Assembly (NCBI GenBank): GCA_043228905.1
Contig: JBHGNT010000012.1
Coordinates: 18,724,001 to 18,788,000 of the forward strand
Direction: 5' to 3'
DNA length: 64,000 nt
Source: Azolla caroliniana
Lineage: Eukaryota; Plantae; Polypodiophyta
Every line of letters starts with the position of its first letter. The first letter of the stretch is position 1. The position numbers were made by a program, and so were the translations under genes. Below the pieces are notes generated by a model. The model searched no databases. It had not been told where the DNA came from and worked only from the letters and a program-made list of their open reading frames with translations. This document shows, in pieces, positions 1,010-56,228 of this stretch.

Positions 1010-1179
1010 TTATCTTTCGTTCTCTGGATCGTCATTCGCTCCAAACCAGTCGTCGTCGCTATCCATGTCCTCTGGGTCTGGTTTGTCTTCGTTCCATTTC
1101 TTGAATGCATTGATCCTCTTCCCAGCCACCGGCACAACTATTCTCGTTCCGTCGAGCTTCGCGAGATGGTAGGTGACGT
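1010..1179 (-). pseudogene. Gypsy integrase C-terminus of outermost host element H
   Basis: Minus strand reads TYHLAKLDGTRIVVPVAGKRINAFKK...*, the same as the integrase tails of X, Y and Z. Confidence 0.85.
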
Positions 1180-2122
1180 TGTCGTGAAGATTTTCGACAA
1201 TCGTGTGAAAATTGCATAAAACATACGAAATCGAGTATGAATTGCATAAAACAATAATAGTAAAGATACTAATTTGAAATAAGTTTAATATCTTGGTACA
1301 AAAAGATGGAGGTCATGAAGAGCTTTCGAATGCACTTTTCTACATAAGAAACAGACATCTAAGTGTCAAGTTATGTGGGTATAAAGTTTTACAAAAGAAA
1401 AAGAGAAAAATAAAATTGTGAAATATCCCAGATAGATAGGAAACATTTAGGCTCTAACTATATAAGCAGATTGAGATCCATCATATTTCATCTATGTGTT
1501 AAGAGCACATAAAAAATAGTTGGACTTGAGCCATTTCTGTCTAGATGGACATATGTGGCTAAGTTGTCGGATGTGGCTAAGTGCCCGAACCGGCCGGTGA
1601 AGAAACTCAAACCGCCCAATGACATAATCGAAAACCGGATGGAGCTGGCAACCAGATGAATCTGGCAAGTGGCAACTGGACGGTGATGATGATGGCATTC
1701 TATGACGGAACCGGCAACCGGTGAACGGGATTTGGCGTTAGAACCGGCGACCGGTGATGGCATCCGGCATCCGGCGACGGAACCGGTGACCGATGGTGAC
1801 CGACATCCGGCGACCTCGAGATGCGAACCGAACCAGGCCAGACCGAATGGATGCAAATCAGACGGATTGGTTGGGTCAGTTGATCGTCATGCATGATATC
1901 TTAAAGATATTTGGTCCAAAAGCCTAATAGTTTTTGTGCATAAAAGAAAAAGATGTAGGCAAGACTCGAACTTTGCACCTCGAAGATAAGAAGCAATAGG
2001 CTTACCATTAAGCCAAATCATTTCTTTAAAGATTATATTTCCTATCATTATACTTTTATCATTATATTTCCTTCCGGTCCAGGACCCTGGTGGTTCCGCC
2101 TAATGATCCGCGCTTAGTGACA
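1180..2122 (+). mobile_element. Orphan 5' LTR (family T) of the Trp-primed Gypsy lineage; internal part deleted
   Basis: TGTCGTGAAG...GTGACA termini like the other LTRs of this lineage. Preceded by ACGT and followed by GATT-TGG (spacer plus first PBS bases), then host integrase. Confidence 0.75.
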
Positions 2123-2574
2123 GATTTGGATTGTACGTTGTCGTGAAGAAAACTGGCCCTAAGAGGAATCAAGGAATCAAAGGCGTGAACCCACCCTTGC
2201 ACGAGTGTGCACGAATTGATATCAATTGTACATAACTAGGAATAGGACGGTTGATATAAATATACTAGGTGTCACATATTTATTAGGAAATCGATGCGTA
2301 TCTTTGTCCAAAGGGACAGAGAATAAAGTTGACATCTTTTGATGTAACAGCCTCCTCGGTGACCTATAAAAGGGGGGGGAGAAGAGGAAGAAGGGATGGC
2401 GTGTTTTTGAGAGGACAAAGTGATTTCGGACTGGGAACCGAGCTCTCTCCTCCACCGCAGTTGTTGCAGGGATTTGGGTTAGGTTGGTTGTGTTGGGGAC
2501 AAGGCCGTCAGTGCAGAAGTGCAAGCAACATTCGTGATGAAGGAATTTGTGTATGCATGAGCAAAATAGACAAA

Positions 2575-2607
<33 letters not shown>

Positions 2608-2999
2608 GCACAAAGGAAATGTTATATTCCAATATCAACCGTTACAAATGTCAACCAACCTTTACTAAAGGTTACAAAGTCACTTTATATAGTGACTATC
2701 CTAGGGCAACTGCCCTTTATGCTATTTACAGAAATAGCCCGAACTTAGGTTGTCCAAAGGGAGAGTGTGAATACGGCCATTATACACTTGTATTCGACAT
2801 TCCCCCGCAATGGGCGTATACATGGGTTATCTTAAAGAATTACAGGTATATATACAGGGTTTATCGGACAGATCGGTTTTGTCAGAGTCGGCAAGATCCG
2901 AAGATAGAAGACCGAATCGGTCGGGTCGGAAGAGCTAAAGCCGATCCTCAGAGAACCGATGTCGGTGGTCTAAAACCATCCTGTGCTGTGTGTCCGACT

Positions 3000-5900
3000 T
3001 TAACCGGACCGATTTTTCGTTACGCCCATCTGGTGCCGAAGGGAACGGAAACGATCCGCCGAAAGACACTTGGTCATTCCATCTGCGACATTATCGGTTG
3101 TGGATATCTTCTCGAGACCGATTCTCCCTGAAATGATGCAGTCCCAAACAAAGTGATATCGAATGTTGATATGCCTAGAGGCGTTGTGGTGAATCGGATT
3201 TTTTGACAAAGCAACATCACCCTGACTATCACTGTAGACAACTGGAGCCGAGTCGAAGTCGACCTATCGAAATGTGTATGCTAGCCGACCGAGCCATAAA
3301 GCTTCTTTTGCTGCGTCGGACGCAGCTACATATTCTGCTTCGGCCGTTGAGGTGGTTGTACACTCCTGAAGTTTTGACTTGCATGAGATTGCTCCATTGC
3401 CGAATTTGAAACAGTATCCGGTTGTTGATTTCTGACTGTCCACACAGCCGGCGAAGTCTGAGTCGGTGTAACCGACTACGACTGAGGTTGAGTTCGGGCC
3501 GAAAAGAATGTCATGGTCTTTTGTGCCAGCTAGATATCTGACCACATGCTTGACTACGTTCCAGTGCGATCGGCCGGGGTTGTGCATGAATATGCTGACA
3601 ACTCCTACGGCGTGAGAAATATCAGGCCGTGTCGCGACCATCGCGTACATGAGGGAACCGACTGCCAGTGCATACGGTACCGACTTCATATCTTCCCCCT
3701 CCGGACCGGATGTCGGACAGTCTCGTTAAGACAACCGAAGGTTAATGGGGAGCGGGGTCGAAGCAGACTTGGCCGATTGCATGTTGAAGCGTTCTAAGAC
3801 ACGTCCGATATAGTCAGTTTGAGACAAGAAAAGTTGTTGTGTATCGCGATACTGACTAATCTTCATACCAAGTATGTGTCTTGCCGGACCGAGGTCCTTC
3901 ATGGCAAACTTCAACCACAGTTGCCAAACGAGTTCGGTGAGCTCTCCGGCATGCCGACCAGAGAGTAGCATGTCGTCCACGTAGATGATGAGGAAGACGG
4001 GAGACCCATCTTGAGCTGTTTTGGTGAAGAGACAGTGGTCCTCATCGCTCTTTCGGAAGCCGACCGATTGGATGAAGTCGTTGAACTTCTTGTACCACTG
4101 TCGACGTGCCTGTTCCTGGCCTGATGACACAAAGCCTTTCGGTTGCTCCATATAGATTTCCTCTTGTAGGTCACCGTGGAGGAATGCCATTTTTACATCT
4201 AGCTGGATCAGCTCCAAGTTGTCGGCGGCCACGACACCGAGCATGAAATGAAGGATCGTCATTTTCACATTGGTGAAAAGATTTCGTCGAAGTTGACGCC
4301 ATATTCTTGTCGAAATCCCTTCGCAACTAATCTGGCCTTGTACTTTGGGGTGGTCGAGTTGGGCGTCTCTTTTAGTCGATAGAACCACTTACACGGAAGA
4401 GCATGTCGATTCTTCGGTAAATTCGACCACGTCCCAAGTCTTGTTTGCCCAAATGGATTGCATTTCCGACTCCATCACCAGATGCCATGTGGCTGAATCG
4501 GCAGATACCGTTGCTTCTTCGTAAGATGTCGGTTCGCTGACGTCAGTAAAGAAAATTCCGGGACAGTACCTCTCCAGAGGTTGCGACAGTCTCTCGGATC
4601 TATGAGGTATGACTGGACTAGTCGCACCGGGTGTCAATGTCGGATGGTCGGGAGCCGAGCCATTCGGTTGTGCCGAATCGGTGGATTCGGTGCGAGAGTT
4701 GTCGGTTACCCGTGAAACCGATCTCGTGTTGTGGGTTGGGCCGTCATGAAGGGTTGGCACTTCGGAAAATATTACCCTTCAGACTTCAATAGGCCTTTCA
4801 GCCGTTTTATGCATAGGTTACTCGTTGAACACGAGGTCTGAACTTCGAACGATTTGTCTGTGCTCGGGGTCCCAGAGTCGGTATCTGATCTCTTCGTCGA
4901 GTCCATATCCAAGAAAAACACATTTCCTTGACCTTGGTTCAAGTTTCCGGCGGTCGTCTTTCGGTATGAGAGCATACGCCTCGCAACCGAAGATCCTCAG
5001 TTTGTCATAATTCGGCTTATTGCCAGTCCATATTTCCTGAGGTATTTGAAGTCCTAGAGGTCTACTTGGCGACATATTTATTATGTGTACTGCTGTAAGT
5101 AGAGCCTCCTCCCAGAAGCCATCCGACAGTTCGGAGTGTTGGAGCATGGATACTACGTGTTCTTGAATCGTCTGATTCATGTGTTCAATAATTCCGTTCT
5201 GCTCCAGACTATAGGGTGCCGTATATTCACGTCGAATGTTGCGTTCCCGACAGAATTTGACGAATTCTTTAGACTTGAATTCTCCTCCATTGTCGGTTCG
5301 GAGACATTTCAGTTTCCGACCGGTCTGATTTTTGACCATTGCAAGCCATTCGTAGAAGATCGAGAACACCCGATCTTTGGTTCTGATGGGGTAAGCCCAC
5401 ACCTTCCGAGTTGAGTCGTCAATAAAACTGACGAAGTAAGAAACACCGCCGAGAGACTGATGTGGCATCGGGCCACAGACGTCCGAATGGACCAAATCGA
5501 GGGGACTCGATTCTCTTGGTGTTGATGTCGGGTGTGATGTGGCTACCTGTGTGCCGTACTGGCAATGCTCGTAGAATTGGTGATCCGAGAAGGAGAGTCT
5601 GGGGATGTAACCGGCTTTGGATAGGTGCGTTATGTTGGCCTTGCTGAGGTGTCCAAGTCGTCCCTGCCATAACGATGACACGGGGATATCAACCAAAAAT
5701 AAGTTACCCTCTTTGAGTGTGACATATAAAGGATACAAGGAATGTACCTTTGGTCCTCGAGCAAGCAGGAGGTTCCCTTTGTGGAGTGTCCACCCTCCTG
5801 ATGAGAATCCAGCACGGATGCCGACTTCGTCAAGTTGTCCGACTGAGATCAAGGGTCTTGAAAGCTCAGGAACGTGTCGGACGTTGTGTAGTACGAGTGT

Positions 5901-6951
5901 AGAGCCTCCCGGAAGATTGAGCTCTACGGTGCCGATTCCAAATATAGCACAGTGCTGCGAGTTTCCGACTCGAACTGAGTTGGAGTGCCGGTTCAAGTAT
6001 TGCCAAAACTGAGATCGGTGAGGTGTCACATGATACAATACGCCCGAGTCCAGGAGTCATGTGCTCAATTTCTCGGTCGTAAGCAGAACTTCTGATTCAA
6101 TTGGGTTCTCTATGGACAGTATGTTCGGGTCGGTCGTCAAAATTTCGGCTAAAGACCCGACGTAGTTGACGTCCTCATGCCGGCTACTCTTCTGATCCGC
6201 TCTCTGAGCTTTGTCAGTTTTTGGTTTGAGTGCTCGGCAGTCGGCTTTGATGTGTCCCGGTTTCTTATAGTAGTTGCAGATTCGGTTGTCCCGGGACTTG
6301 CTCCGGCTTCGCTGATTGTTCGGCGGTCGGGAAGAACTTCTTCCCCGGTTGTTCAATCGGTCGGTCGAACCTTGTACTACGTAAGCTTCATTTACCGAGT
6401 CTTTGGCGAAAGACTTTCTCCGAGTTGCTTCAGTCAGGATTGCGCTCGTGACTTCGGAGTACTTAACTGCAGCTGTTGAAGCATTGCACACGGTTGTAAC
6501 GAAAGTTTCCCATGAAGAAGCGAGACTACTCATGAGTATCATTGCTCTGAGTTCATCCTCGATTTCCGTCCCTTGAGACGAGATTTGGGAGCTTATGCTT
6601 TTGTACTCGTTGAGGTGTGCCTGAACCAAATCGGATCAAATACATCTTCGTTGCGGCAACCTTCTTTTCATAAGTTTCCGACAGTGTTTTCCAAAGTTCA
6701 AACATTGTCGTGCATGATTGCACTGTGAAGTACACTGACTCCGACAAGTGCATCCGAATCGTGGCGCCGACGATTTTGTCCAACTTTAGCCACTCGTTTG
6801 CCTTGTATGCTTCTGGAGGATTTTCATTCTCAATCGGGTCTATCTGACCCTTGACTATGAGATAGTCCTGCATTTATTCCTTCTAGAAGTTGAAGTTCGA
6901 ACCGTCGAACCTCCTTAGACTCATCTCCGATGAGCCAGATGTTGATGCCAT
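3000..6951 (-). pseudogene. Copia A gag-pol (gag, protease, integrase, RT, RNase H), disrupted by stops and frameshifts
   Basis: ORF fragments show the zinc knuckle CNYYKKPGHIKADC, integrase LVHSDVCGP...LRTDNGGEF, RT IYVDDML and RNase H YTDSDFAG...EAEYVA, in Copia order. Confidence 0.93.
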
Positions 6952-7583
6952 CTACTTTGGTTTCGGTTGGTAAGACTCGGTTCGGAGTTGACTATGAACC
7001 TTAGTGGGGTGCAGTCAGTCTGCTCACCCGATATCATTCTAGTTGGTTTGGTTTCGGATACTTGTTGTTGAACTTGCTCGAAGTGACTACGGTAAATTGA
7101 GGGACAAAACCGGTTGGTCTTCTTGAATGTTGCCGAATTGGAGTGAGCCCGGTTAGCTTCCGATTGTATGCTAAATACCGATTACACAAACCCGATTCTG
7201 CTTCGGATGACTACAACGATGAGAGGGATGGATCCAACTGATCCTCCCAAATGTCGATCAGCCAATTGAAGCACGAAGTGGTTGGTTGTTGCTCAAGGAG
7301 CTCCCCTCAAGCTGTTACAATCACAGGAACAGAGTACAACCGACTGGCTTATTCCAATTTGTGATTTAACATAATGAGATGCGAGCTTTTTGTTTTTCTT
7401 CTCCCTTCTTTGTTCTTCAAGGAAAACGAAAACAGAATGTTGTGTTGTGCGATGACGGTCGACAACGGGTTGAAGAACCTCCAACGCTTTGATACCAAAT
7501 GTTGGGGACAAGGCCGTCAATGCAAAAGTGCAAGCAACATTCGTGACGAAGGAATCTGTGTATGCATGAGCAAGATAGACACA

Positions 7584-7629
<46 letters not shown>

Positions 7630-7724
7630 CACAAAGGAAATGTTATATTCCAATAGCAACCGTTACAAATGTCAACCAACCTTTACTAAAGGTTACAAAG
7701 TCACTTTATATAGTGACTATCCTA

Positions 7725-10700
7725 AACACCGGGTCATTTGAAACAGGTAATATGTCGCATTCTCTTTTTCATATCTTAGTGAGATGTTAAAAAATGCCTT
7801 ATTTAAGCAGAATTTCAACAAGGCACAACGCATGTGTATGTGGTTTATGAAAACATAGCGAAAAAAAGAACTAACTAATATCACGTCAACAAAATCATCC
7901 GACGTATATTCCATCTACCATGTTTTTGTCCAAATCTTAGACAGGGGTGTATTTGTTAACACAAGTATAATAGTAACACGGGTCCTTGTGCATATTCTAA
8001 AAAGCATGCCCCATTGAATAAGTGACTTCTTCTAATTATGTGTGTATATTTAAATATAATACATCTTAAAGCAATTTGTGAACCTTGCCATTAAGAGATA
8101 CTACTATGTCAAGAGAAAATTTCCATTGACACGTGATACATGACACTGTCAATGTATAAATAAACTAGTCTACAATAACATTCCAATCATACGAGTAAAT
8201 GATAGAGTATAAACTTATCTCCAATATACCCCAAATGATAAAGGAGAGTTTAGATAACATGTACACATACAAGTATACTTAATTTCTAAGTTCAATGATT
8301 GTTACACGAAAATTATAAGTAAGCTCAACTTATATATTACGTCAAAATTTAACAATTCATATTGTTCAAAATTTACAATAAGCCATAACCATTCAATCGA
8401 ATAATAAGTCTGGTAAAGCCGTCTACTCAGGATTAGCTCTTTCATCAGGATTGTCCTCATTGGCTTCGTCAGTACGCTAAGTTGAATTGTTAGTATGTTC
8501 AGACTCTGAAACGTCTTCTAATTCAACAAGTTGCCCTGCGTCTTCATCTATAGTTCCACAAGTTTTCTAAAAGTCATTTGGAACATCTAAGTTTTATTGA
8601 TATGCTTTGCCCCAACTTCTTGGTCTTGATCAGGACAACCCCAGATACCTTGGATCCTCATTTTGATGACATTAACTTGCTCAAGGTCCTTCTCTAATGC
8701 AATAGAGTTCCTGATAATCTTTAAGGCGTATGTTTTAGTAGTACATGACAGTAGAATGAAATTGCACAGGTAACATCAAACTGAAGAATAGAATATAACG
8801 TTAATCTAAATTGATGTAAGTTTTATATTATATACCTGTGTCAGAAAACTAATCTAAAACCCATTGAAAATTTGAAACAATAAAATTTGAAAAAATAAAA
8901 AATCTTGGATTTTTAATTGGAATCCAATGCGATGCACTAGATTTCAGTTGAAAATCCAAGTTTTTTTTTTTTTGTAATTTTTAAAATTTTTTCCATTAAA
9001 AAATAAAAAATGGATTTTCAGGTAAAATACTATGCACTACATTATATTTTAGTATATATAGCTAGAATCTAATGCAATGCGTTGGATTAGAGTCGAAAAT
9101 CCTTTTTTCTTTTTTCTTTTTCCAATGTTATTTATTTATTTATTTTCCATATAAAAAAATAATAAACGGCTTTTCAACTGAAATCCGATACACTACATCA
9201 GATCGTAGTCTATACAGCTAGACATTGATGCATTGCATCAGATTTTAGCTGGCAATCCTCTTTCTTTTCAATTGTTTTTCATTTTTTCAAAAAATAAATA
9301 AAAATATATTACAAAAGTGGATTTCCAACTGAAATCTAATGCACTACATCGAATTTCAATTAAAAATCCAAATTTCTTTTAGGTTTTTCATAAAACAATG
9401 AAATAATAAAAAAATATTACATTTTCAACAAAATTTGAACCATTGAGTCGGATTTCAATTGCAAATTAATATTTTATGAAAAAACATAAGAAAAATATTG
9501 GAGTTTCAACGGAAATCCGATGCACTGCATCAGATTTCTGTTGAAACTCAGTGATTTTGAACGGAAATCCGATGAAGTGCATCGGATTTCCATTGAAAAT
9601 CCTGTTGAAAATGATTTGTTTTCAACGGGAATCCGATGCACTGCATCGAATTCCTGTTGAAAACACATCATTTTAAATGGAGAAAATCACAATTTGTTTA
9701 TTTTTAACACTTTTTTAGAGAAAAATATAAACAAATAAGAAAATTTGTAAACAAACAAGAAAAAGTGGACTTTTAATGGAAATCCGATGCAATGCATCGG
9801 ATTTCCGTTGAAAATCCATTTTTTTCAATTCCTATATATTTATTTATGATAAAAACAAAAACAATTCAAAACAAATTCAAAATATCTGAAACATTGGAAA
9901 CAAATAAGACAAAATGGATTTTCAATAGAAATCCAATGTAGTGCATCGGATTTCTGTTGAAAACCCATTTTTTGCAATTTTTATTTATTTATTTATGGGA
10001 AAAAATGAAAAAAATATTTTAAAATATGAAAATTTGGTAACAAATAGCAAAAAGTGGACTTTCAATAGGAATCCGATGCAATGCATCGGATTTCCTTTGA
10101 AAATTCATTTTTTCAATTTCTATATAGTTATTTATGAGAAAATAAATAAACAAAATACCAAAAAATTTCTAAAAACTATGAAAATTTGGAAAAAAAATAA
10201 GAAAAAGTGGCTTTTCTACGGAAATCCGATGCAGTGCATCGGATTTCCATTGAAAATCTATTTTTTCAATATTTATTTATTTTTTATAGAAAAAATTCAA
10301 AAAATTCAAAAAAATTCAAAAAAAAAGCAAATTTGGAAAAAAAATACGTAAAAGTGGACTTTCAACCAAAATCCGATGCAATGCATCGGATTTCCGTTGA
10401 AAATCCATTTTTTCAAATTTTATTTATTTTTTTATGGGAAAAATAAAAACAAATTCAAAAATAATTCAAAAATAATTCAAAAATAATTCAAAAAATAAGA
10501 AAATTTTCAAAAAAATAAGAGAAATTGGATTTTCGATTGAATCCGATGCACGGAATTGGATTTCCATTGAAATCTAATTTTTCAATTTTTATTTATTTAT
10601 TTACGAGTAAAATAAAAAATGTTTATTTATTTATTTATGGGAAAATGTTTTATTTTTTCAATTTGTATTTATTTATGTATTTTCGGGAAATCCATGCAAT

Positions 10701-11628
10701 GTATCATATTTTAGTCTATGTAGCTAGAATTAAATGCAATGCATTAAAATGCAAGAGTATTTTTTTAATGGAAATTTTAAAAGAAAATTCAAGACTTACA
10801 GGAATCTGATGCATTATATCCAATTCTAGATGTATAGAGTAAAATTCGACATGTTGCGTCAAATCTAGATTGAATGAATCGGATTTCTGTACAACATCAA
10901 AGGCTTACTATGAGAATCTAAGAAAAATGGAAAACATCTTTAAGACATTTTTTAGATTCTAATGATTTTGGTAGAAAGCTTCTCTCACATAATCTAATCT
11001 TGTAAATGGAAAGTACATAATGAAATATCATAACCAAAAAGTGAGGAGGAAAGATGCATCAAGCACATCTACTCTTACATTGGATAATGTTTATATATTA
11101 GTGTATGACTTATCTTTGACCAAAACAAGTTATCTGTGACAGACCACAATGAAGATACTAAAAGAGGATCTGGAATGTGGCTTCAGACACAACACAAAGA
11201 CAAACAAGAAGCATGACTCATAAACTCGATGAGGTTGGATTGCAATTGGATCAACACAATGCATTAGTTGCCATTGATGATGAGGATGAGACCTCATAAA
11301 CTCGTACTAGTTCATCTAATGGGTATGAAGATGATGACATAAACTTGAAAAATGATTGTCCTGATATGTTAACTATAAATATTGTATTGCACATCAAGAT
11401 TTGGATTCAGAATTTCTATAAATATGGGGGTTAGTCATTTTGGACATTCATTTGTAAGTTTGGCATGTCCATTATTTAGGCATTTTTTTTAACACCTAAA
11501 TTTCCGTACATTTTAAAATTCCTTTACGCATGCGGCACCCCTTTTTGTGAATCACCCTAATTTGTGTCATTTTTTGATGGACAGTTCTCAAAATGCGACA
11601 TATTACCTGTTTCAAATGTCCCGGTGTT
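7725..11628. mobile_element. Non-autonomous TIR DNA transposon (37-bp TIRs, 4-bp TSD CCTA), superfamily uncertain
   Basis: AACACCGGGTCATTTGAAACAGGTAATATGTCGCATT (7725-7761) is the inverse of 11592-11628 with 1 mismatch. It interrupts the Copia A LTR at GACTAT-CCTA-GGG, which is intact at ~2700. Confidence 0.88.
8905..10870. repeat. Array of ~18-20 imperfect palindromes (core AATCCGATGCA-N-TGCATCGGATT) with A/T-tract spacers
   Basis: Units such as TGGACTTTTAATGGAAATCCGATGCA-A-TGCATCGGATTTCCGTTGAAAATCCA, centred near 9792, 9941, 10081, 10233, 10381 and 10551, with degenerate copies on either side. Confidence 0.9.
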
Positions 11629-11991
11629 CCTAGGGCAACTGCCCTTTATGCTATTTACAGAAATAGCCCGAACTTGGGTTGTCCAAAGGGACAATGTGAA
11701 TATGGCCATTATACACTCGTATTCGACAGGTTGCCTCTGCTGCGTGAAAGCCCGCGTGCTTCCGGTAGAGGCTCCACCACGTATTTCAGTGCGTGTTGAG
11801 TTTGTCACCGGCTTGCCAATTGTAACATTGCACGTTGTAATCTATATTGTTATTGGAATTGACTGTTTCTTTCTGTCTCTCTGTGCTCCTGCAAATCTCT
11901 CTCTTCCTCTTATCTCTCACGCTCCTCGGTTCAGGGCCCCTGTGGTCCCGCCTTGTTTCATACGCGTGAGCGTAACAACACGACATTAATT

Positions 11992-12009
11992 TGGTGAACC
12001 CGACGTGAA
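11992..12009 (+). promoter_or_regulatory. tRNA-Trp primer binding site of X (same PBS at 23803, 29978 and minus 48254-48271)
   Basis: TGGTGAACCCGACGTGAA is complementary to the 3' end of plant cytosolic tRNA-Trp (...TTCACGTCGGGTTCACCA, recalled from memory). Confidence 0.85.
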
Positions 12010-12031
12010 ACAGGCGGCAGAGAAGTCGAAG

Positions 12032-18182: not shown

Positions 18183-18524
18183 TTTCCTTCTTTACGACAT
18201 TGAGGAGCAAGATTATATGAATGCATTAAAGCAAATCGAAGAACTAAAAACTTTGAATAGATCAACCTTCAGGGAGGATGAGGATTATACTACTTTAAAT
18301 AAGCAACTACAGGATACTCAAGAGTATCTTTTATTCATAGAAAGCAAATACAAGAAAATGTTACAATTAAGGACATGTATAAAAACAGAAAATTCAACTC
18401 TTTTGGAAGCTAAAAAAGAAAGCAAAAATTACCATAACTTAACTAAAGAGCCTTAATGCTTAACGTAATAACGACATGCATAAAAGCAAAAAATTCAACA
18501 AGTTTGGAAGCCAAAAGGGAAGTA

Positions 18525-19867: not shown

Positions 19868-19902
<35 letters not shown>

Positions 19903-23679: not shown

Positions 23680-23729
<50 letters not shown>

Positions 23730-43641: not shown

Positions 43642-45394
43642 ATAACTGGATGTGAGGACGTCTCCTGCATGAAGAAGTGTTGGTCGATCTCAACATCGCC
43701 GATTTTCACCTATACGTTTAGGCAGGCTCCATGTAGTTCTTCCGTGGCGCGCGTCGCTGCCCGTATCTTCCAGCCGTGTTTGGTGTTGATCGGCCATTTC
43801 CCCTTTTTGTAGAAGTCCATGGACATCAAGTTGATTTCTGAACCGTGGTCCACCAATGCCACCATCAGCTCCAGGAAATCCCCGACCTTAACAGGGGTCT
43901 CTATGGTCGCTCTGGCCCAGTGCGGCCTCGAATAGTGGCTCTCCGCCAACTCGTCTTCTAGCGCCATGTCCTCTATGTGTGTCATTCGCACTTCCACTAG
44001 CTTCTCCGGCCCTGGCTCTATCGACAGCCTCTTCCTCTTCACCAAGTCTACGATGGAGTCGTGGAACTCCTTCTTGGTGATCCCGAGCACTTCCCTCAGC
44101 GACAGTTCCACTTTGTTGTCGAGGATACGTTCCTCCAGGACCTTTTGCAGGTTCGTGGTCCTTTCGATTTCCGTGCTCAACCGGTACCCGGCCTTCTTGT
44201 CTTTATCCGGTGCGCCGGTCGCACCGGCCTCATTCTGCCTTTGACCAAATCGGGTCTCGTACCATTGCGAGGGCCCGGTCACTCCAGTTTTACCTACTCG
44301 CTTGTCTTCCACTAGAGACTCGTAGTTCTGGCATCGGCTTCAACGAAGCCCGTCTTCTCTTCGACCGAGTCGCTCCACTCGGTTACCTCCCGGACCCGTT
44401 TTTCCGCACGGTCCGCTTCTTCTTTCCTTAGCCGTGCGCCGGCGAGGCCTTCCAGCATCAGCAGCCGGAATCCGGCTTCGTTCGTCTTCCGGGCCTCACC
44501 ACCTCCGACCCGGATCCCAACCGACGCCGAGTAGTGGACGGTCTCCACATGGCGAGCCGCCGCTTCTTCCATCAGTCGTTTCATACCCCCTCGTCCGACA
44601 TTCAGGTCTAGGGCCCTTCGGGTCTCGCTAGCGTGCACCCGACCGTTCCATAGGTACACCACATTGGCTCTCATTGCCTCGGCAAAGTCCCCGCAATCCT
44701 TCCGAACGTGGCCAACCGCATCGCACCACAAACACCGGTTTCCAGCCAGATGCCTTTGGTCACGGGCCTGTTCGCCGCCATCCCTCCGTGCCTGTGCAAT
44801 CTGAAGGTCCTTTACCATCCTAATCAGCTCCTCTAGAGCTGCTCCTCTGGACGAACCTTTGACCATGTCGGTCGAAGTTGATCCGGTCTCGAGCCAGTCT
44901 CAGGTCTCTTCCCTTTGCGTTGGTGGGGTTGGCTCGAGTTTCCTTGCTTCTACAGAGCCATCCCCTGTTGATACTTTATCGACCCACTCTCGCCGTTTGT
45001 CGAAACGGCCACAGACCCTCTTCACCACGGCCCAGTCGGCCGTCAGTCCGTCATCAGTCTCCAGCAGGAGACCCACTTGCTCCCAGTCCCTCACATCCAC
45101 CGACTTAACAAACAGCAGGACGCGACTTGTGTCTAGTACGGTCCGGTCGAGCGCCGAAAGACGCGTGAAGCGTTCTTCAAACTCCCGGAGGAGCACCGAC
45201 GCGTTTCTCCCCTTTCCAGGGGTCTCTACCCATTCCATGAAGTCCTGTTTCGAGAGCCGAAGCGTGTCATCAAGCCCATATTTTTTGAGGAGCCGACCTT
45301 CGAACTCTTCCCAGGTCCGGCTCTCAGCCCGTACCTCGAGCACCTCCGCATGGATGCCCGGCATCGCCACCCGAGGGAATCCGGTCAGTCGCCT
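43642..45394 (-). pseudogene. Z gag-protease
   Basis: Highly similar to Y gag-protease; CLWCDAVGHVRKDC, ALVDHGSEIN. Confidence 0.88.
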
Positions 45395-46460
45395 TGTTAG
45401 ATATAATCAATGATCAGCCCCAAGTTGTAAATCTATCCCCATATGTGCTCTTAGAGTGCACATTTTGTGATAGCGCCCCAAATGAGGAGCGGCTAGTGTG
45501 CAACTCGACCATATGGGTCGATAAGGTGTTAATCTAGGAAACCGTAGATGCGTAGGACACAATATATTTAGGAAAGAGAGAAATAGATAAAAGGATTGGC
45601 TAATCAAGTCAGCTAGAATATTTTGTGGGCAAGTTACGATGTACTTAGTCTTGAAGTATGCGTCATTGACTTCAAGATAAGTATTATCTAGCACTAGCCT
45701 GTACCTAGGGAGTTGGGTCATATTAAATGACAAGTCAGTTGACAGAAAAGGAATATCTCCACTACTGTCAACTGACTTGCACATTTATACTAAGACCAAA
45801 CATAGATTATAAGTCACTTTTCTCACACAGTGGTCAGATTGATCATTAGTCCCCACTAATTTTGTAGTGAGTCGGTCCATATCCTATCTAAGCTCTAAGG
45901 TGTGAGCGCATGGGAAAACTACCATTTTGAACTACTCTCATATGTAATAGAAATTCTGTTTTCATATATCCATCTCTGCAGTTGTAACTCTATATACCTA
46001 TCTACTCGATTCTCAATATTTCTAATATGGTATCAGAGCGAAGAGGTTGATCTAGATTAGGTATATACGGGTAGTTGTTGTCTAGCAACAGAGAGAAATA
46101 GAGAGAGAGAGAGAGAGAGAGAGTATCAATGGCCTTGTCCACGAATGTTGCAGCTGCTCCATTGCGCATTCGCCCACCTCCATTGTCTGATGGAAAGCTA
46201 GATGGAACCAACTACACTCTATGGAAGTTCAAAATGTCTGCCATTTTGGATTCCTACGAGTTGTTGGAAACAATCATGGGACCCACAGGGGGAGACCCTG
46301 AGCCCATGGCAACCTTTGACCCTGCACACCCTACCACATCAATTCCTCCAAATGCTGATCTACTTCGAGCCTGGAAGAGAAGGAATGCTGATGCGCTATG
46401 TACCATAGTCACTGGTGTATGTGACTCCGTACTAACACTAGTGCAACATACAACTAGGGC
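45395..46460 (+). mobile_element. Truncated Copia B: 5' LTR 45395-46027, Met PBS 46028-46039, gag start 46129
   Basis: TGTTAG...CTAATA followed by TGGTATCAGAGC; KLDGTNYTLWKFKMSAIL Copia gag N-terminus. Confidence 0.85.
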
Positions 46461-46470
46461 ACTAACACTA

Positions 46471-48229
46471 ATTTCCGACCTGTGGTCGATTAACGCCACC
46501 ACCGGTTCCTTGAGATTCCCGATACGAACCGGCATTTCTATAGTAGCTCTTGCCCAATGCGTTTTGGCGTAGTGGCACTCCGCGAGGTCGTCTTCCACGG
46601 CTATCTCATCGAGGAGTGCCACCCTTACCTCCACCGGCTTCTCGGGCTCCGGTTCCGTTGCAACACGCTTCCTCTTCACGAGGTCCACGATGTTGTTGTG
46701 GAACTCCCTTCTTGCTATGCCGAGCACTTCCCTAAGCGTGAGTTCTATGCGACTGTCGAGAACTTGCTCCTCTAGAACCTTTTGTAGGTTCGTTGTTTCC
46801 TCTATCTCCAAGCTTAAGCGAAAGCTCAGAATCCTGCCCTTCTCCTTCTCCTGGGATCCGGTCGGAGTGGCATCGTGCTTTTTGGTTGCGCTTCGTGTGT
46901 CCTGCCTCCCCAATGGGCCCGCTCCCCCAGTTTTTCCCGCTCGCCTTTCGTCAATCAGGGGTTCGTAGTTTCTGCACGCGGCCTCCACAAAGCCGGTGCT
47001 TTCTTCAACGGGGTCGCTCCACCCGGTAACTTCGCGAACACGTTCTTCTGCGTGCTCCGCTTCCTCCTTCTACAGTCTTCCTCCGGACAAGGACTCGAGA
47101 ACGACCGGCCATAACCTAGATTTGGAATCGGGTTTGGTCTTCTTCTCCCCTACGCGTATGCTGGCCGAAGCCGAATAGTGGATGGCTTCAACGTGCCAGG
47201 CCACGGCTTCTTCCATAGCCTCTTCATGCCACCTCGTCCGAAATTCGTGTCAAGCAATATTCGCATGTCGCTCGCATGTACCCTGTTGTTCGAAAGGTAG
47301 ACTACATTACTCCTAAGCATTTCTCCAAAGTCAGCGCATTCTCTCCGGGCATATCCAGTGGCGTCGCACCATACGCACCTCTGATTGGCCGGTGGTCGCC
47401 AGTCGCGCGGCTGACCTTCGTCGCTTCGTCCGGCCTGGGTGGTCTGGAGGTCGCGCACCATCCTTGTCAGTTCTTCTAGTCCGGCGCCACCTGCAGGTCC
47501 CACGACTATGTTCGCCGGGGGTGGGCCTAGCTCGAGCCACCTCCTCATTTCTTCCATTCAGGTCGGCGTTGGTTCGGCCCTGATTTCGACAACTGGTCCG
47601 ACCGACGAGGACCCCTTTTCATTCTAGTCCCGGCGTTTGTCAATCCTGCTACATACTTCCTTGACGGTCGCCCAGTCAGTCGTGAGGCCCCGGTTAGTTT
47701 CTAGAAGAAGACCCACCCTTTCCCGGACGCGTGAGTCGAACGAAGTGACAAAAAATAGAACCTTGCTCATTTTGAGCACGGTTCTGTTCAACCTAGAGAG
47801 TTGTGCGAACTGTGACTCGAACTCCTGGAGGAGCGCAGAAGCGTTCTGACCCTTGTCAGGGATGTTGACCTAGTCCATAAAATTCTTTCTCAATAGCCGG
47901 AGCGAATCCTCGTAGTTGTACCTCTCGAGAACTTCCTCTACGAACTCTACCCAATCGTGACAGCCCACTTGTATTTCGACCATCTCTATATGGATGTGTG
48001 GTGTTACGACCTGGGGAAACCCCGCTAGCCGTCTATCTTCGGGTATGTCCCTCATCTGCATTTCAGATTTGTAGGCCTCTAAGTAACTCGTGGCGTCCTT
48101 TCCGCTGAACCGGCCTATCTTGCCGACTGTTGCCTCTATGGCCCGATCGAGGGCACTCGCGCCCTCGCGAGCAATAACTAGACGGTCTACCGCCACCGCC
48201 ATCGCTTTTGCAAGTTCGCTTCCTCTCAT
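46471..48229 (-). pseudogene. V gag to start of protease
   Basis: MRGSELAKAMA...CVWCDATGYARREC...VVALIDHRSEI, ending at a deletion junction. Confidence 0.85.
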
Positions 48230-49002
48230 CTCCAGATTCCTTTGCCGCCCTTCTTCACGTCGGGTTCACCAAAGATGTCGAGGAAATCCTCGCAGATGCG
48301 TAGAAGTCAGGCAGGACCACGGGGGTCTCGAACCAAGGAATCAGGAAAACGAGGGAGGAGTTTGGGGACCGCGTAGGTCTTGAGACCACGGGATAGCGGG
48401 TAAGTCTAGCGAACGAGAGAGAGCAAGAGAATCACGCGTAGACACAGACACGGACAAAGACATTGATAACGGAGTATGTTAGGTAGAAAGAGTTCTATTA
48501 AAACCCAGGTGCACGGTGTTGTGAGTGGTTACAGCCGGATCAAAGCCGGTGATGGAGCGCGGAGCTTGGCAAATAGCTAGGTACAAAGAGATGTTGGTGC
48601 GCAGAAGGTCGATCCCCAAGTCGAGAGCACTCGGGCTTCTGACGCGATCAAGGGGAAGCGCCTTCTTCCGCGGTCAGTCCTCGGTCTTTCTCTCTGTGTA
48701 TCCTTTCCTCTAAATGGCATCCCGAAGACAGTCAAAGGTCGCCCCTTTTATAGCTCAAGGAGCGACCATTACAAACATTCATGACCCGTTACTTTTGTCC
48801 TAGATTCTCTCCCCTGATTTACTCTCCTCATAACTCTTCCTACTTATGCGATGTTTATGCTCTAACTACCTAGTACCCCTCCTTATACTCATGCCTAGTA
48901 CTTGTCCTATTTAATTCCCTCGAGGCGTGCACTCGCGTCAATCGGTGTTCCTGTGCGTTTCACCTTGTTTCTACCTATGGCCCAGAATCTTCATGACAAC
49001 GG

Positions 49003-49998
49003 TACGAGACCCAGTTCGGGCAGAATCAAAACGATGGTGGTAACCTGGACAAAATGAAGCGGGTCGGTTACCGGCTAAGCACCGAGATTGAAAGGACGAC
49101 GGACCTACGGAAGGTTCTAGAAGAACGGATCCTCGACAACAAGGTTGAGCTATCTTTGCGGGAAGTGCTTGGGATTGCGAAGAAGGAGTTCCACGATTCC
49201 ATCGTAGATCTAGTGAAGCGCAAGCGGCTCTCTACAGAGTCGGAACCGGAGAAGCCGGTGGAGGTGCGGACGGCGCACATGGAGGATGCGGCCCTAGAAG
49301 ACGAGTTGGTGGAGAGCCACTACTCGAAGTTACACTGGGACAGGGCCACCACGGAAACCCCTGTCCGGATCGGGGACGTGCAGGAGCCAGTGATTGCATT
49401 GATAGAACATGGTTCGGAGATAAACCTGATGTCCATGGACTTCTACAAGAAAAGGAAGTGGCCAATCAACACCAAGCACGGTTGGAAGATACGCGCAGCA
49501 ACGCGCGCTATAGAGGAGTTGCACAGGGTGTGCCCAAATGTAAGCGTGAAGATTGGGGATGTCTAGATAGATCACCATTTCTTCGTACAGGAGACGTCCT
49601 CGCACCCGGTGATACTTGGTGAACCGTACATTACAGCGGCAAGCATGGAAACAAAGGTGCTTGATAATGGGTAGGTGTACGCGCGCGTAACAAGCTAAGA
49701 TGGATGACACTCCGTCCAATTCTTGACTGTAAGGCCGAACCATGAGAGGAACCGCGAGACCCTCGGCGGCGATAGCTGAGGGGATTTTTAGCGAGGGCTA
49801 TCAAGGTGTCGGGCGGCAATAGTCCGGGCACACTGGAGGAACCCCACACATGTACCATAGGTACGAAGTTTCGGTTCTCCGAGAACGGAAGTTGTACTTT
49901 AGCCAACGTCAACGGTCGGGAAAGGAAGTAGGCGGAGGAACGGCTCAAGGTATGTGGAGTCCTCACCCCCGATGAAGAAATTAGTGGTGCCATGGAAG

Positions 49999-50074
<76 letters not shown>

Positions 50075-50242
50075 TCCCTTATCTTCCCTATATAAACCCC
50101 TCCTATTCTATATGGTCATGTGCACTGATGAGCTCCTTAGGAGCGAAACTAGTTTGCCACATCGACCATTTCTTTGTATTACTTTTTAAGTTTCTTAATA
50201 TGAATTAGTTTTTAGTTCATTTCTCTCCCTCTAAACTTTGTA

Positions 50243-50300
<58 letters not shown>

Positions 50301-51846
50301 ATTCTCACTCTTAATCTCAAATTCACCCACCGATTGTATACCGTTCGCACTCCTTGTATTGACCCCACGGTCTAGAACTCACAATTCGTAGTAATTTCTA
50401 TGGAGGACCAATCCACAGAGACGTGAACCCACGATGGCATATGATCGACGCCCTTCGAGTATCCACTTCGTGTCGAGTTCCCTCATTTCAAGTGGAAGGC
50501 ATTTGCAACGGCATCATCGGCATCCCATACATGCCTTCAACATATTATCTCTCACTTCCTTACATCTTTTCATTGTAAGCATGGGACTACATTCGGTAGC
50601 CATGCATTCCCTTTTGTCTCTTTTATTATGTGTGCATATGGACTACTTTCAATATTTGGCATTTTGCATAATCTTAGTATTTCCTTTCCAATGCACAGGA
50701 CTACATTGTAGCCGGCATTTGTATTCAACATATGTTCTACCCTTCCGTTGTAACCAATATACCTTGCATCACTCTCCCTCCCACTCACTTTCTCTTGCAT
50801 GATATCCTTCCCCCATAGTCTCTCTCTATATTAACTTTACCCCTCTTTTATCTTTACCTAATTCTCATAATACCCTTACCTATTTTCAACGCTACCCCTT
50901 CCCTAACTTTTCAATATTTTCACTATACCCTCCCCCTTACTTTTCCTTATCTTTAACTCTACCCCTTCCCTAACTTTTCAATATTTTCACTATTCCCTCC
51001 CCCTTACTTTTCCTTATCTTTAACGCTACCCCTTCCCCTACTTTTCAATATTTTCACTATACCCTCCCCCTTACTTTTCCTTATCTTTAACTCTACCCCT
51101 CACATTTTAACTTTTAGCATCCTCCCCTAATTCAATTTCTCCTAATTCAGTTTCTCCTATTTTCCAATTCTACCCCTCACCTCTTAATTTTTAGCCTCTT
51201 CCCCTCATTCTCCTTTTTCCTATTTTCTAATCCTACCCCTCCCCTCACCTTTTATTGTTTCCAAATTTTATTTTTTTCTAACTGTCACCTCCCCCCTATT
51301 TTTTCCTAATTTGATCTTCTACCCCAACCTTTACTTTTTCATTGCCATTCTAACTTTACCCCTACCTTTCCCTAACTCACGCCAAGTATATGAAACGATT
51401 TGGGTGCGCTTGAATCGTTCTTCGTGATCTTTTCACTTCATTCCCACTTTGTCAATTTACTCTACCCCTGTCTCGTTCACTAATTTCAATCTACCCCTTT
51501 CCCCCTTCCTTTTTTCTAGAATTACATTCATACCCCTCCCTCTTTTAGTAATTTTCTCGTACCCCTCCCCCTTTCATTCTTCTTAATCTCACACTACCCT
51601 TTCCTCCTCCACTTTAATTTCCAATCTACCCTCCAATTCTTCCTACCCCCCCTCCTTTTTTCAAAGATCTCCATACAATCTAACATACTTCACCATCCCT
51701 AACTCCCACCTCACAGACTTCTCTCCTACCCTTCCTCTCTCTTTCTCTCTAACACTCCCCTACATGTTTTTCAAATAAGCCCATAAAATCTTCTATCCCA
51801 CACCAAATATATCAAACCCCATATCTCCTACATCATCAAATTTGAA

Positions 51847-51943
<97 letters not shown>

Positions 51944-54939
51944 ATTCTCACTCTTAATCTCACATTCACCCACCGATTGTATACCATTTGCACTCCTTGT
52001 ATTGACCTCACGGTCTAGAACGACACCCTCAGGGAAATCAGGAAGGTGATCGAAGAAGGCCTCAGTAAAGACCGGATGATTCCGATTAACTTGGTGGGAA
52101 TGTACGAAGTCATTGCCGACTTCAGGGAAAGGTTCAGGTCGGATCGGACGGCCTGCGTGGATACCAGGTACAGGACTGTGGACCGGAAGGTGAGGATGAC
52201 AGCAAGGAATGAATAAAAGGGGTCGTGTGGGACCCAAGTTTGCAGAATCCGGCCGGCATAGGACACCAGTTCATCGACATAACGCTACAGGAGCTCAAGG
52301 TCGGTGGGGGTGGCTTTCTACTGCCAACGGAGGAGGAGAGGTTTTGAGGAATGCTCAGGAGGCACGGGAAGGCCTTCGCGTTCACCCCGGGGGAGATCGG
52401 GTGTGTGGACCCGACAATCGTGGAACCAATGGTGATCTTCACGGTACCGCATGTGCCGTGGAATCTCAAGCCAATTCCAGTACCTAGAGCTCACATCCCG
52501 GAGTTGGTGAAGCTGCTGAAAAAGAAGGTGGAGATGGGCATCCTCGAGCCGTCGAGTGCCCCATATTCGAACCAGTGATTTATGGTGCCAAAGAAGAACG
52601 ACACGATGCGTTTTATTTAGGACCTGCAACCGGTCAATAAAGTGACCATCCGAAATGCAAGTATCGGGCCAACCATTGACGAGTCTGCAAAGGCCTTCAC
52701 CGGAAGGTCAATCTATTCGGTCGGGGATCTATACTCGAAGTACGAGCAGTTCCAACTAGTCATGGAGAGCAGGGATATTACGACCATGCGGACTCCTCTC
52801 GCCCTAGTGCGGATGTGCACCTTGCCGCAAGGAGGGACCAACTCGGTGCCGCACATGGTGAACGCTATCAACAAAGTGCTAAGGGACTGCATCCCAGATA
52901 TCATCATGTCATTTTTGGAAGATGTACCGATAAAGGGTTGTCCGTGGAAGATAAGGACATGTGGAGGTTCCTGGGGGCATGTGCGTACTACCACATCTGG
53001 GTTCCGCATTACGCGCACATAGCAGAACCGCTCTACGGGCTACTGAAGAAAGGATGCAAATTTGAGTGGGGTGAGGAGCATACGGAGTCGATCCGGAGAC
53101 TGAAGGAGGCACTTACTGCGGCACCGGCTCTCTGGAAAGCGGTTTACGACAAGGAGGTCCCAATCTACGTAACCGTAGATACGAGCCCGACCGGGATAGG
53201 ATGGGTGATCCATCAGGAGGACGAGAGCGGCACGCGGTTCCCGATCCAGTTCGGGGCGAAGGTTCTCAATGAGCGACAACGAGGATACGCCTAAGTTAAG
53301 CGCGAGCTGTGGGGTATTGTTTCGGTGGTCAAGTCCGATAAAGATTACTTGATCGGGACAGAAGTAATCATCGAGACGGACTGCCTGCCGGTCCTCGGTA
53401 TGGTTTCTGGATGCGTGACTCCAGACCTGGCAATGCTCAGGTGGATCGCGTACATTAAGTCTTTGGATCCAGAGATACAACACATCTCCAAAAAGGACAA
53501 CGCCATGGCCGATATGCTTTCTAGAGCACGGTTTGACGATGAGAACAACATGGTTTCGGAGGACGAAGAGGTCGGCGTAGACTTCTTCGAGTCGGCTCAC
53601 GTAGCGACAAGGGTAGGGAGCACTCCGGCGCTTAAAAATTTCAATGAGAGCGAGTACGATGGGGAGTGGCTCCAGATTAGAAGGTTCCTAAGGACAATGA
53701 CGCCGGACGCGGCATAGACCAGAGAGGAGGCTAATTGGATCCGGAAGAAAGTGTACCGATTCTACCTACGGGACAAAAGTACATGGAAGCTCCCAAAGAC
53801 ACGAGGCGGCGTTCCGCTCCACGTGGGACACCGCAGGACGTGGGCCACGTTCGAGAAACTAAAAGAGAAGTATTGGTGGCTAGGGTTGTACCGGGATGTG
53901 TACCGATTCATAACAACGTGCGAAAGTTGCCAACTACACTCCACAGTCTGACATCGAGAGGAGCTACACCCGACCTACCCGCCAACCGTCCATTTCAAGT
54001 GGATGGTAAAATTAGTAACGATGTCAATGGGGGTAGGGCAAATGTGGTACTTGGTGCTTGCGCCGGAGGATTTGACGAACCAGGTAGAGAGCCGCGCACT
54101 GCAAAACAAGACAACTGCAGCGATGTGCCGGTTTCTGATCGAAGAGGTAGTATGCCGGTACAGGTGCGTGGGAAAGATCATAGCGGACCATGGGGAACTG
54201 GATGCACAGGAGGCCAAAGAGATGTTTGAACGGTTAGGGGTTAAACTCTCGCTCACTACGGCTTACAATCCGAAGGCAAATGGGAAGGTGGAGCACGGAC
54301 ACGGCCCAATCGTAAAGGCGTTGGTACGGGCCTGTGGAGGCCAGGTCGGGAATTGGTCGCGGCTCCTACCCTACGCACTATGGGCAAACAGGACGATGCA
54401 TAGTTCAGTAACCGGGTACATGCCGGCGGAGCTGATGTACGGGCAGAAACCGGTCATGCCGGTGGAACGGACGATTTCCTCGTGGGTGGTGATAGATTGG
54501 AGGAACTAGATGAGCCCGGAAGAGCTGTTGGCGGCACGGATTCGACAGCTTAAGACCGGAGGACGTGGAGCGGGCAAAGACAAAGCTGCAAATGGCGAGG
54601 GAGAGGAACAAAGGCCGGTTCGACCAAACACACCAGTTGCGGCCAAAGAAGATCGAGGAAGGTGACTGCGTGTTGGTATACGACAGCAGCCTCGACAACC
54701 AGCACAAGGCAACGCACAAATTCACGAGGAGGTGGTCCGGGCCCTATGTCGTTCCGAGCACGAATGACAATGAGACATACCATCTTGCAGAGCTCGACGG
54801 GACGCGATTAACAGTGCCAATAGCCGGGAAGCAGATCAAGGCGTTCAAGAAGCGACAGGAGGACGAGCCGGAGCCGGGAAGCGTGACCGACGACCACCAC
54901 CGGTTCGGAGCAGATGAGGATTCGGGAGGTAACGGATGA
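49003..54939 (+). pseudogene. X gag-protease 3' part and pol (RT, RNase H, integrase), degraded; interrupted at 50007-52020
   Basis: Fragmented ORFs collinear with Y pol, ending KQIKAFKK...* before the PPT and 3' LTR. Confidence 0.88.
50007..52020. other. Unclassified 2-kb pyrimidine-rich insertion with (CT)n tracts, ~80-bp direct repeats and ~67-bp tandem repeats
   Basis: Interrupts X pol at EAVS|DTL. 50299-50378 is repeated at 51941-52020. Three tandem units lie at ~50890-51100. Confidence 0.75.
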
Positions 54940-55616
54940 TTATAGGCTGGTCTTCTCCGTCAATTGTTCGTGTCTGGTGCATACCGGTGGATGCACGGTT
55001 AGGTGGGGGCAGATGTCGTGAAGAAAACCGGCCCTAAGAGGAATCAAGGAATCAAAGGCATGAACCCGCCCTTGCACGAGTGTGCACGAATTGATATCAA
55101 TTGTACATAACTAGGAATAGGACGATTGATATAAATATACTAGGTGTAACATATTTATTAGGAAATCGATGTGTATCTCTGTCCGAAGGGACAGAGAATA
55201 AAGTTGACATCTTTTGATGTAATGGCCTCCTCAAGGACCTATAAAAGGGGGGGAGAAGAGGAAGAAGGGATGGCGCGTTTTTGAGAGGACGAAGTGTTGT
55301 CGAACTGGGAACCAAGCTCTCTCCTCCACCACGGTTGTTGCAGGGATTTGGGTTAGGTTGGTTGCCTCTGCTGCGTGAAAGCCCGCGTGCTTCCGATAGA
55401 GGCTCCACCACATATTTCAGTGCATGTTGAGTCTGTCACCGACTTGCCGGTTGTAACATTGCACGTTGTAATCTATATTGTTATTGGAATTGATTCTTTC
55501 TTTCTATCTCTCTGTGCTCCTGTGAATCTCTCTCTTCCTCTTATCTCTCACACTCCTCAGTTTAGGGCCCCCGTGGTCCCGCCTTGTTTCATACGCATGA
55601 GCGTAACAACACGACA

Positions 55617-56228
55617 ACGTTGTGGTGAGCGAGAGTTTAACCCCTAACCGATCAAACATCTCTTCAGCCTCTTGCGCATCCAGTTCTCCACGGTCCCCTA
55701 CAATCTTCCCTACGCACCCGTACCGACATACCACCTCTTCGATCAGGAACTGGCACACGACCGCAGTCGTCTTGTTCAGTAACGCTTGACCTTCCACCTG
55801 GTTCGTCAGGTGCTCTCGTGCTAGCACCAGGTATCGCATCTACCCTACCCCCATCGGCATCGTCACCAGATCCACCATCCACTTGAAGTGGACGGTCAGC
55901 GGGTAAGTCAAGTGCAGCTCATCCCGATGTCGGACTATGGAATGCATCTGACAGCTTTCGCAAGTCGTTACAAACCGATGCACGTCCTTGTATAGTCCCA
56001 GCCACAAGTACTTCTCCTTCAGCTTCTCAAACGTGGCCCACGTCCCCCGATGTCCGGCCCAAGGACTCTCGTGGTACGCCATCAACAATGCTTCCTACTC
56101 CTCCTCCCTCGCCGCTACCCGGAGTGGGACGACGTCTTGCTTCTTCGGGTGCTTCCATATGCTTCCGTCCCGTAGGAAGAATTGGTACGCTTTATTCCGG
56201 ATCCGGTTAGCCTCTTCCTTCGTCCACA
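55617..56228 (-). pseudogene. Host element H integrase (continuation of 2127-2138)
   Basis: YHESPWAGHRG...CESCQ...WMVDLV...GDRGELD...VKLSLTT. Confidence 0.88.

What the first reader, a model, noticed from the sequence alone, without database searches (positions are those of the whole stretch)
1176..55620. Trp-primed Gypsy lineage inserts into CpG-centred 4-bp targets (7 of 7 sites are N-CG-N)
Seen: target sites are T ACGT (1176, left side only), X ACGT/ACGT (2135, 55617), V GCGG/ACGG (13443, 48999), Z ACGG (13687, left side only), Y CCGT/CCGC (23089, 39625), W GCGT/GCGT (29247, 32715) and U ACGC/ACGC (38676, 39605). The outer bases vary and the central CG never does. Copia and Tcn1-like insertions in the same DNA have ordinary 5-bp TSDs (GGTTG, CGTAC, ATAAC). 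Known: most plant LTR elements make 5-bp TSDs with weak sequence preference, and some insect errantiviruses prefer CGCG. Inference: this chromodomain-less integrase reads a CpG dyad, possibly methylated. That would steer it into CpG-rich old elements and explain the extreme self-nesting. I do not recall this being described for plants.
Basis: partly seen in the sequence, partly recalled or inferred. Interest (0 to 1): 0.82.

Follow-up and report, generated by a model that had tools for sequence, protein, structure and literature searches.

The report
Phygy-type retrotransposons inserting at CpG
These nested plant jumping genes really do land almost only on four-base targets with CG in the middle, but that habit was published in 2019 for the moss 'Phygy' lineage, to which they likely belong, and whether the CG must be methylated remains untested.

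Summary
Observation confirmed. All seven junctions lie at the stated coordinates, and all 12 target copies have a central CG. The duplication is 4 bp: empty-site contigs skip element + 4 bases. In an independent metagenome set, 41 of 47 unique LTR flanks are NCGN against 4.0% background; 5 of the other 6 are TG/CA, the expected decay products. The novelty claim fails. Neumann et al. 2019 (PMC6317226) list non-chromovirus Phygy as 186 elements, 4-bp TSD (100%) NCGN, tRNA-Trp primer (81%), no extra domain. The window's elements meet those features. I could not place them in a tree with a labelled Phygy reference, and they are shorter (about 6.6-6.8 kb against 7.7-10 kb). One refinement: no T at position 1 (0 of 41, background 36%) and ACGT in 21 of 41, so the motif is nearer VCGB. 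Methylation dependence is untested. CG preference does not explain self-nesting: only 8 of 47 independent flanks are same-lineage and 15 are Copia-like, and Copia DNA here is nearly as CG-rich. Verdict: real, ordinary, low interest.

The parts
1176..1179 (+). T left target ACGT, inside the 3' end of an older same-lineage integrase on the minus strand (about 987-1179)
1180..2122 (+). T: lone 5' LTR, followed by spacer GATT and TGG (start of a PBS), then a deletion junction
2135..2138 (+). X left TSD ACGT
2139..55616 (+). Element X: 5' LTR 2139-2490 + 11734-11985 (split by a Copia with TSD GGTTG), PBS from 11992, gag interrupted by V, pol, 3' LTR 55014-55616; LTRs differ at 38 of 603 sites
13443..13446 (+). 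V left TSD GCGG, in X gag
13447..48998 (-). Element V: 5' LTR 48276-48998, Trp-type PBS just inside 48276, gag; 3' LTR from 13447 interrupted by Z
13687..13690 (+). Z left target ACGG (single copy in V's sister LTR)
13691..45394 (-). Element Z: 3' LTR 13691-14384, PPT, pol 20153-23088 interrupted by Y, gag interrupted by a Tcn1-like element (TSD ATAAC); 5' LTR missing
23089..23092 (+). Y left TSD CCGT, in Z pol
23093..39624 (+). Element Y: 5' LTR 23093-23798, PBS TGGTGAACCCGACGTG from 23803, gag with DUF4100, RT-RH-IN split by a Copia (TSD CGTAC), integrase ends in an acidic tail without chromodomain, 3' LTR 38013-39624 split by U; about 6.8 kb without inserts
29247..29250 (+). W left TSD GCGT, in Copia RT
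29251..32714 (+). Element W: 3464-bp non-autonomous copy, 723-bp LTRs (1 difference in 721 sites), Trp-type PBS, one 708-codon frame with a gag N-terminus related to X, Y, V and Z (33-35%), no pol
32715..32718 (+). W right TSD GCGT
38676..38679 (+). U left TSD ACGC, in Y 3' LTR
38680..39604 (-). U: 925-bp solo LTR
39605..39608 (+). U right TSD ACGC
39625..39628 (+). Y right TSD CCGC
48999..49002 (+). V right TSD ACGG
55617..55620 (+). X right TSD ACGT, in a same-lineage integrase fragment (55617-56226, minus strand)

Best explanation
These are nested, chromodomain-less Ty3/gypsy retrotransposons, likely of the Phygy lineage of non-seed plants, that insert at CG-centred four-base targets, and their integrase likely picks the site itself by cutting with a 4-bp stagger around a CG step that it reads by sequence, without needing methylation. 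Shown here: 4-bp duplication, central CG, avoidance of T at position 1, RT-RH-IN order, and no chromodomain or extra RNase H detected. Inferred: the intasome bends the target at the central pyrimidine-purine step, as retroviral integrases with 4-bp TSDs do (PMC4422553, abstract). Base contacts would then select C:G over the other flexible steps (TA, CA, TG) and disfavour T at position 1. After insertion the element and its target are methylated and decay, which gives the mismatched TSDs and the few TG/CA centres. The pile-up in this window likely reflects a local transposon island rather than the CG rule.
For: Window junctions. Empty-site contigs skip element + 4. Independent flanks: 76 loci, 21 PPT-preceded set aside, 55 others, 8 duplicates dropped, 47 unique; 41 of 47 NCGN against 4.0% background (p 4e-51); 5 of the other 6 are TG/CA (p 3e-4), and the sixth (L025, CCTT) has CCGT on its right side. 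Right ends of LTRs not followed by a PBS: 4 of 5 NCGN. T at position 1: 0 of 41 against 36% background (p 1e-8); ACGT 21 of 41 against 6%. Published Phygy definition: 4 bp (100%) NCGN, tRNA-Trp 81%, no extra domain. No chromodomain or second RNase H in the closest intact relative P0002 or in X's integrase end. Named relatives are liverwort and fern proteins. RT is 26% identical to the window's Tcn1-like element against 72-92% within the clade. CG decay between LTR pairs (X 18 of 35 CGs, Y 14 of 52) points to methylated DNA.
Against: No labelled Phygy sequence could be aligned, so the lineage call rests on features, not on a tree. Elements are shorter than P. patens Phygy (Y 6816 bp; X about 6.6 kb after removing a roughly 2-kb insert; Phygy 7656-9968 bp). 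TatI also has a 4-bp TSD and a Trp PBS. One LTR in the independent set has unmatched sides (L071, CCGG / CCAT). Nothing here separates sequence readout from methyl-CpG readout. The independent set comes from one LTR-start pattern and from short metagenome contigs of related families (best LTR matches 66-92% to the window, apart from one 38-bp exact match), so it is not this genome.
Confidence: 0.7

Rival explanations
1. The integrase, or a host cofactor bound to it, recognises methylated CpG, and this replaces a chromodomain as the route into silent heterochromatin.
For: 27 of 47 independent flanks are recognisable LTR-element DNA, and many are CpG-depleted (observed/expected 0.2-0.6), as old methylated DNA is. 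All 7 window insertions are in transposons. No chromodomain was detected.
Against: The genome region is transposon-rich anyway and no background was available (no genome held). No methyl-binding domain was detected by Pfam. Decay of target CGs shows methylation after insertion, not before. ZAM integrase binds its CG-rich target in vitro as oligonucleotides and plasmid DNA, which shows that sequence readout of such targets is possible.
Confidence: 0.17
2. The elements share the NCGN habit but are a separate non-chromovirus clade (a Phygy sister group or TatI-like), not Phygy proper.
For: Shorter length. Wide host range of relatives (Riccia, Adiantum), whereas Phygy was defined from P. patens only. 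TatI shares the 4-bp TSD and Trp PBS.
Against: TatI is defined by an extra RNase H (100%), which was not detected here. Only Phygy is reported with NCGN. Phygy domains have since been reported from a liverwort (PMC12885004, passages).
Confidence: 0.1
3. The pattern is an artefact of boundary calling or of choosing elements that fit.
For: Two of seven sites are one-sided and two are mismatched. At T and Z the host sequence after the target also begins with TGT. One unassigned TGTCG-starting stretch (minus strand, 468) has a non-CG flank.
Against: Empty sites fix 4 bp. 41 of 47 independent flanks chosen only by an LTR-start pattern are NCGN. The same motif is published from 186 elements.
Confidence: 0.02

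Closest known systems
Phygy, non-chromovirus Ty3/gypsy clade of Physcomitrella patens (Neumann et al. 2019, PMC6317226; REXdb)
   Same: 4-bp TSD with NCGN, tRNA-Trp-type PBS, no chromodomain, no extra RNase H, no extra ORF, polyprotein spanning nearly the whole internal region, frequent nesting into other LTR elements (Phygy into Tcn1 in PMC6911290).
   Different: Shorter here (about 6.6-6.8 kb against 7.7-10 kb). Host probably not P. patens (weak: RLG2 primer not found). Includes a 3.5-kb gag-only derivative (W). The motif resolves here to about VCGB with ACGT modal; the paper gives only NCGN in the parts I saw.
TatI (non-chromovirus OTA; Neumann et al. 2019)
   Same: 4-bp TSD, tRNA-Trp PBS (75%), no chromodomain.
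   Different: TatI carries an additional archaeal-type RNase H (100%), not detected here. No NCGN preference is reported for it.
ZAM errantivirus of Drosophila (PMC2527525)
   Same: Ty3/gypsy element with strong sequence-specific targeting of a CG-rich site; its integrase binds the target directly in vitro.
   Different: Target is CGCGCg with a second binding site nearby. It is an insect retrovirus-like element, and its consensus is longer than a four-base CG-centred motif.
Retroviral intasomes with 4-bp TSDs (PFV, MLV; PMC4422553)
   Same: 4-bp stagger with a flexible pyrimidine-purine step at the centre.
   Different: Their preference is weak and covers YR steps in general; here it is nearly absolute for CG.

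Membership tests
Ty3/gypsy | Domain order GAG-PR-RT-RH-IN between LTRs, with PBS and PPT | tested here: met
   RT-RH-IN order, gag upstream, LTR pairs, PBS and PPT. Protease was not separately detected by Pfam in the window frames.
Phygy | Clusters with P. patens Phygy in RT-RH-INT trees (primary definition) | not testable with these tools
   REXdb FASTA and Additional file 1 too large to read. No Phygy-labelled or P. patens-named protein among listed hits. The tree has no labelled reference.
Phygy | 4-bp TSD | tested here: met
Phygy | NCGN target motif | tested here: met
   7 of 7 in the window; 41 of 47 independent
Phygy | PBS complementary to tRNA-Trp | tested here: inconclusive
   PBS TGGTGAACCCGACGTG in X, Y, W and V. 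The Trp assignment is recalled: no matching tRNA gene was found in the window or in two collection scans.
Phygy | No chromodomain (non-chromovirus) | tested here: met
   Integrase ends in an acidic tail shortly before the PPT; no Chromo Pfam hit; RT 26% to the Tcn1-like element
Phygy | No extra ORF; polyprotein spans nearly the whole internal region | tested here: met
   Y internal region of about 5.4 kb is covered by gag-pol homology
Phygy | Size 7.7-10 kb (descriptive; the authors call size of little value for classification) | tested here: not met
   Y 6816 bp; X about 6.6 kb net
TatI | Additional archaeal RNase H (aRH) domain | tested here: not met
   No separate RVT_3/RNase H domain in P0002 or the window pol frames
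Chromovirus (Tcn1 and others) | Chromodomain and chromovirus-type RT | tested here: not met

The most novel reading that the evidence does not exclude
The Phygy-type integrase is a methyl-CpG reader: it chooses methylated VCGB sites, so DNA methylation itself steers this bryophyte and fern lineage into silent chromatin in place of a chromodomain.
Probability: 0.15. Interest if true: 0.65.

Novelty: new member of a known kind. Interest (0 to 1): 0.2.

Why it matters
The target rule is already in print, so the finding as posed is not new. Two small additions remain: the preference holds in families outside the P. patens set, and it is narrower than NCGN (TCG avoided, ACGT modal). The mechanism looks unstudied in the library searched. 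A retrotransposon integrase with near-absolute CG centring is a clean system for asking whether an integrase can read cytosine methylation. If it does, methylation would both silence these elements and attract new copies.

Tried and rejected
Own-genome TSD census: no genome is held. 5-bp re-calling of boundaries: rejected by empty sites. T as a false LTR start made of integrase codons: considered, because the host reads N-V-T-Y-H across the site, and rejected because 1180-2122 is LTR-like. Laying contigs on W's 3' end: 12-20 contigs per run continue through the four target bases and then diverge, but the table is cut (39 rows hidden) and single flanks are not shown, so I did not count it. No RNA holder was listed for W. 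Getting a labelled Phygy reference: REXdb file unreadable; supplement cells cut at 400 characters; RLG2 forward primer has 0 matches at up to 3 mismatches, and it is not established that RLG2 is Phygy. ESM Atlas returned only generic Gypsy integrase clusters. The RT tree (16 of 19 candidate rows kept, 3 dropped for under 150 aligned residues) is mostly unresolved and has no labelled outgroups. tRNA gene search to confirm the anticodon: 0 hits. Paper searches for DUF4100 with retrotransposon and for non-chromovirus CG insertion terms gave 0 papers. Earlier-findings searches by words gave nothing.

Full report
Check of the observation. The window is a stack of LTR elements. Seven insertions belong to one family group with LTR starts of the TGTCGT type and, where present, the primer site TGGTGAACCCGACGTG (X, Y, W, V). 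All 12 target copies have CG in the middle. X, W and U have perfect 4-bp duplications, V and Y differ by one transition, and T and Z keep only the left side. The length is fixed independently. The intact sister LTRs hold one copy of the Z and U targets. Public contigs of uninterrupted Copia copies skip 3468 bases at W, which is 3464 + 4, in 4 of 4 runs laid. With CG at 5.2% in the window and up to about 8% in host elements, 7 of 7 has a chance of 1e-9 to 2e-8. The control TSDs GGTTG, CGTAC and ATAAC are 5 bp as stated.

Independent test. No whole genome is held, so I scanned metagenome contigs for the X/Y/Z LTR start and got 76 loci. 21 were preceded by the polypurine tract and set aside as 3' LTRs, 8 of the remaining 55 were duplicates, and 47 unique flanks were left. 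41 of 47 are NCGN against 4.0% background (p 4e-51). Five of the other six have TG or CA centres, the products of methyl-CG decay (p 3e-4). The sixth, L025, is a solo LTR with CCGT on its right side. Of 7 LTR right ends found, 2 were followed by the PBS and 4 of the other 5 were NCGN. The motif is narrower than NCGN: T never occurs at position 1 (0 of 41, background 36%, p 1e-8) and ACGT makes up 21 of 41 (background 6%). Position 4 of left copies may be inflated for T by CHG decay next to the LTR's TG, as Y suggests (inference). These loci are related families, not this genome.

What the elements are. Pfam gives RT, RNase H and integrase in Gypsy order, with DUF4100 in gag. The integrase of X and Y ends in an acidic tail just before the polypurine tract. 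Neither it nor the closest intact relative P0002 shows a chromodomain or a second RNase H. Named relatives are from the liverwort Riccia and the fern Adiantum; the closer hits are unnamed metagenome proteins. RT is 72-92% identical within the clade and 26% identical to the window's Tcn1-like element. W is a young, gag-only derivative that would need a helper to move. LTR pairs differ mostly by transitions and lose CGs (X 18 of 35, Y 14 of 52), so the DNA has likely been methylated.

Comparison with what is known. Neumann et al. [quoted passage not shown] Their table gives Phygy as 186 elements, 4 bp (100%) NCGN, tRNA-Trp 81%, 7656-9968 bp, no extra domain. Additional files 1 and 3 (element table and sequences) were too large to read; they bear on membership and may already show the finer motif. 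PMC6911290 (passages) confirms 4-bp TSDs for Phygy and reports Phygy nested in Tcn1. PMC12885004 (passages) reports Phygy domains in a liverwort. PMC7466625 (passages and supplements) and PMC3276498 (passages) gave nothing decisive. The window's elements therefore work like Phygy and meet its descriptive features except size (Y 6816 bp; X 8679 bp including a roughly 2-kb insert). The primary criterion, tree position, could not be tested. The Trp identity of the primer site is recalled, not shown. TatI shares the TSD length and primer but requires an extra RNase H, which is absent here.

Mechanism. Retroviral integrases favour a flexible pyrimidine-purine step at the centre of the target, most strongly with 4-bp TSDs, and add base contacts (PMC4422553, abstract). 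ZAM integrase binds its CGCGCg target directly (PMC2527525, passages). I infer the same two layers here: a bend at the central step, plus contacts that select CG over the other YR steps and disfavour T at position 1. Flexibility alone cannot explain it, because TA never appears at the centre and the few TG/CA centres fit decay. Methyl-CpG readout remains possible (about 0.15-0.17), but nothing here tests it.

Self-nesting. In the window 6 of 7 insertions sit in same-lineage DNA. Among the 47 independent flanks, 8 are same-lineage, 15 Copia-like, 4 Tcn1-like and 20 unassigned (Fisher p 0.0007). CG density is 0.070 in the lineage, 0.061 in Copia, 0.038 in the Tcn1-like element and 0.018 in the AT-rich parts. 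The rule would favour GC-rich transposons over AT-rich DNA about three- to four-fold, but it hardly favours self over Copia. Caveats: flanks were classified only against the window's own elements and four relatives, and short assemblies under-represent high-copy flanks.

Verdict. The feature is real and strong, and it is already described for Phygy. These copies are likely further members from another non-seed plant. In the library searched I found no paper on the mechanism or on methylation dependence; most subscription journals are not covered. Interest 0.2.

Noticed in passing
window 29251-32714: W is a young, gag-only derivative with an AT-rich 723-bp LTR and a 708-codon frame running into the 3' LTR. 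It is held by many public runs at high summed depth, so it looks like an abundant non-autonomous family.
   Followed up: partly
window about 50002-52021: A roughly 2-kb insertion in X's gag-pol junction, bounded by long (CT)n tracts and carrying a 134-bp direct repeat (50245-50378 and 51888-52021, 97%); possibly a microsatellite-targeting element.
   Followed up: no
window 1-986: An unassigned LTR-like stretch; on the minus strand it starts TGTCG at 468 with a non-CG flank. No partner, PBS or match to the fetched loci was found.
   Followed up: partly
window 14644-20152 and 60666-64000: A hAT-like DNA transposon (DUF659) inserted in Z's integrase, with a 95% identical inverted second copy at the window's right end.
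   Followed up: no
window 8875-10624: An AT-rich array of about 147-bp palindromic repeats inside the Copia that splits X's 5' LTR.
   Followed up: no
window 29251-29290 and 39570-39604: The LTR starts of W and U form short hairpins right after the terminal TGT.
   Followed up: no
L065 and L066: Both ends of one 12,071-bp contig carry the same LTR start and the same flank in opposite orientation; counted once as a likely assembly artefact.
   Followed up: no
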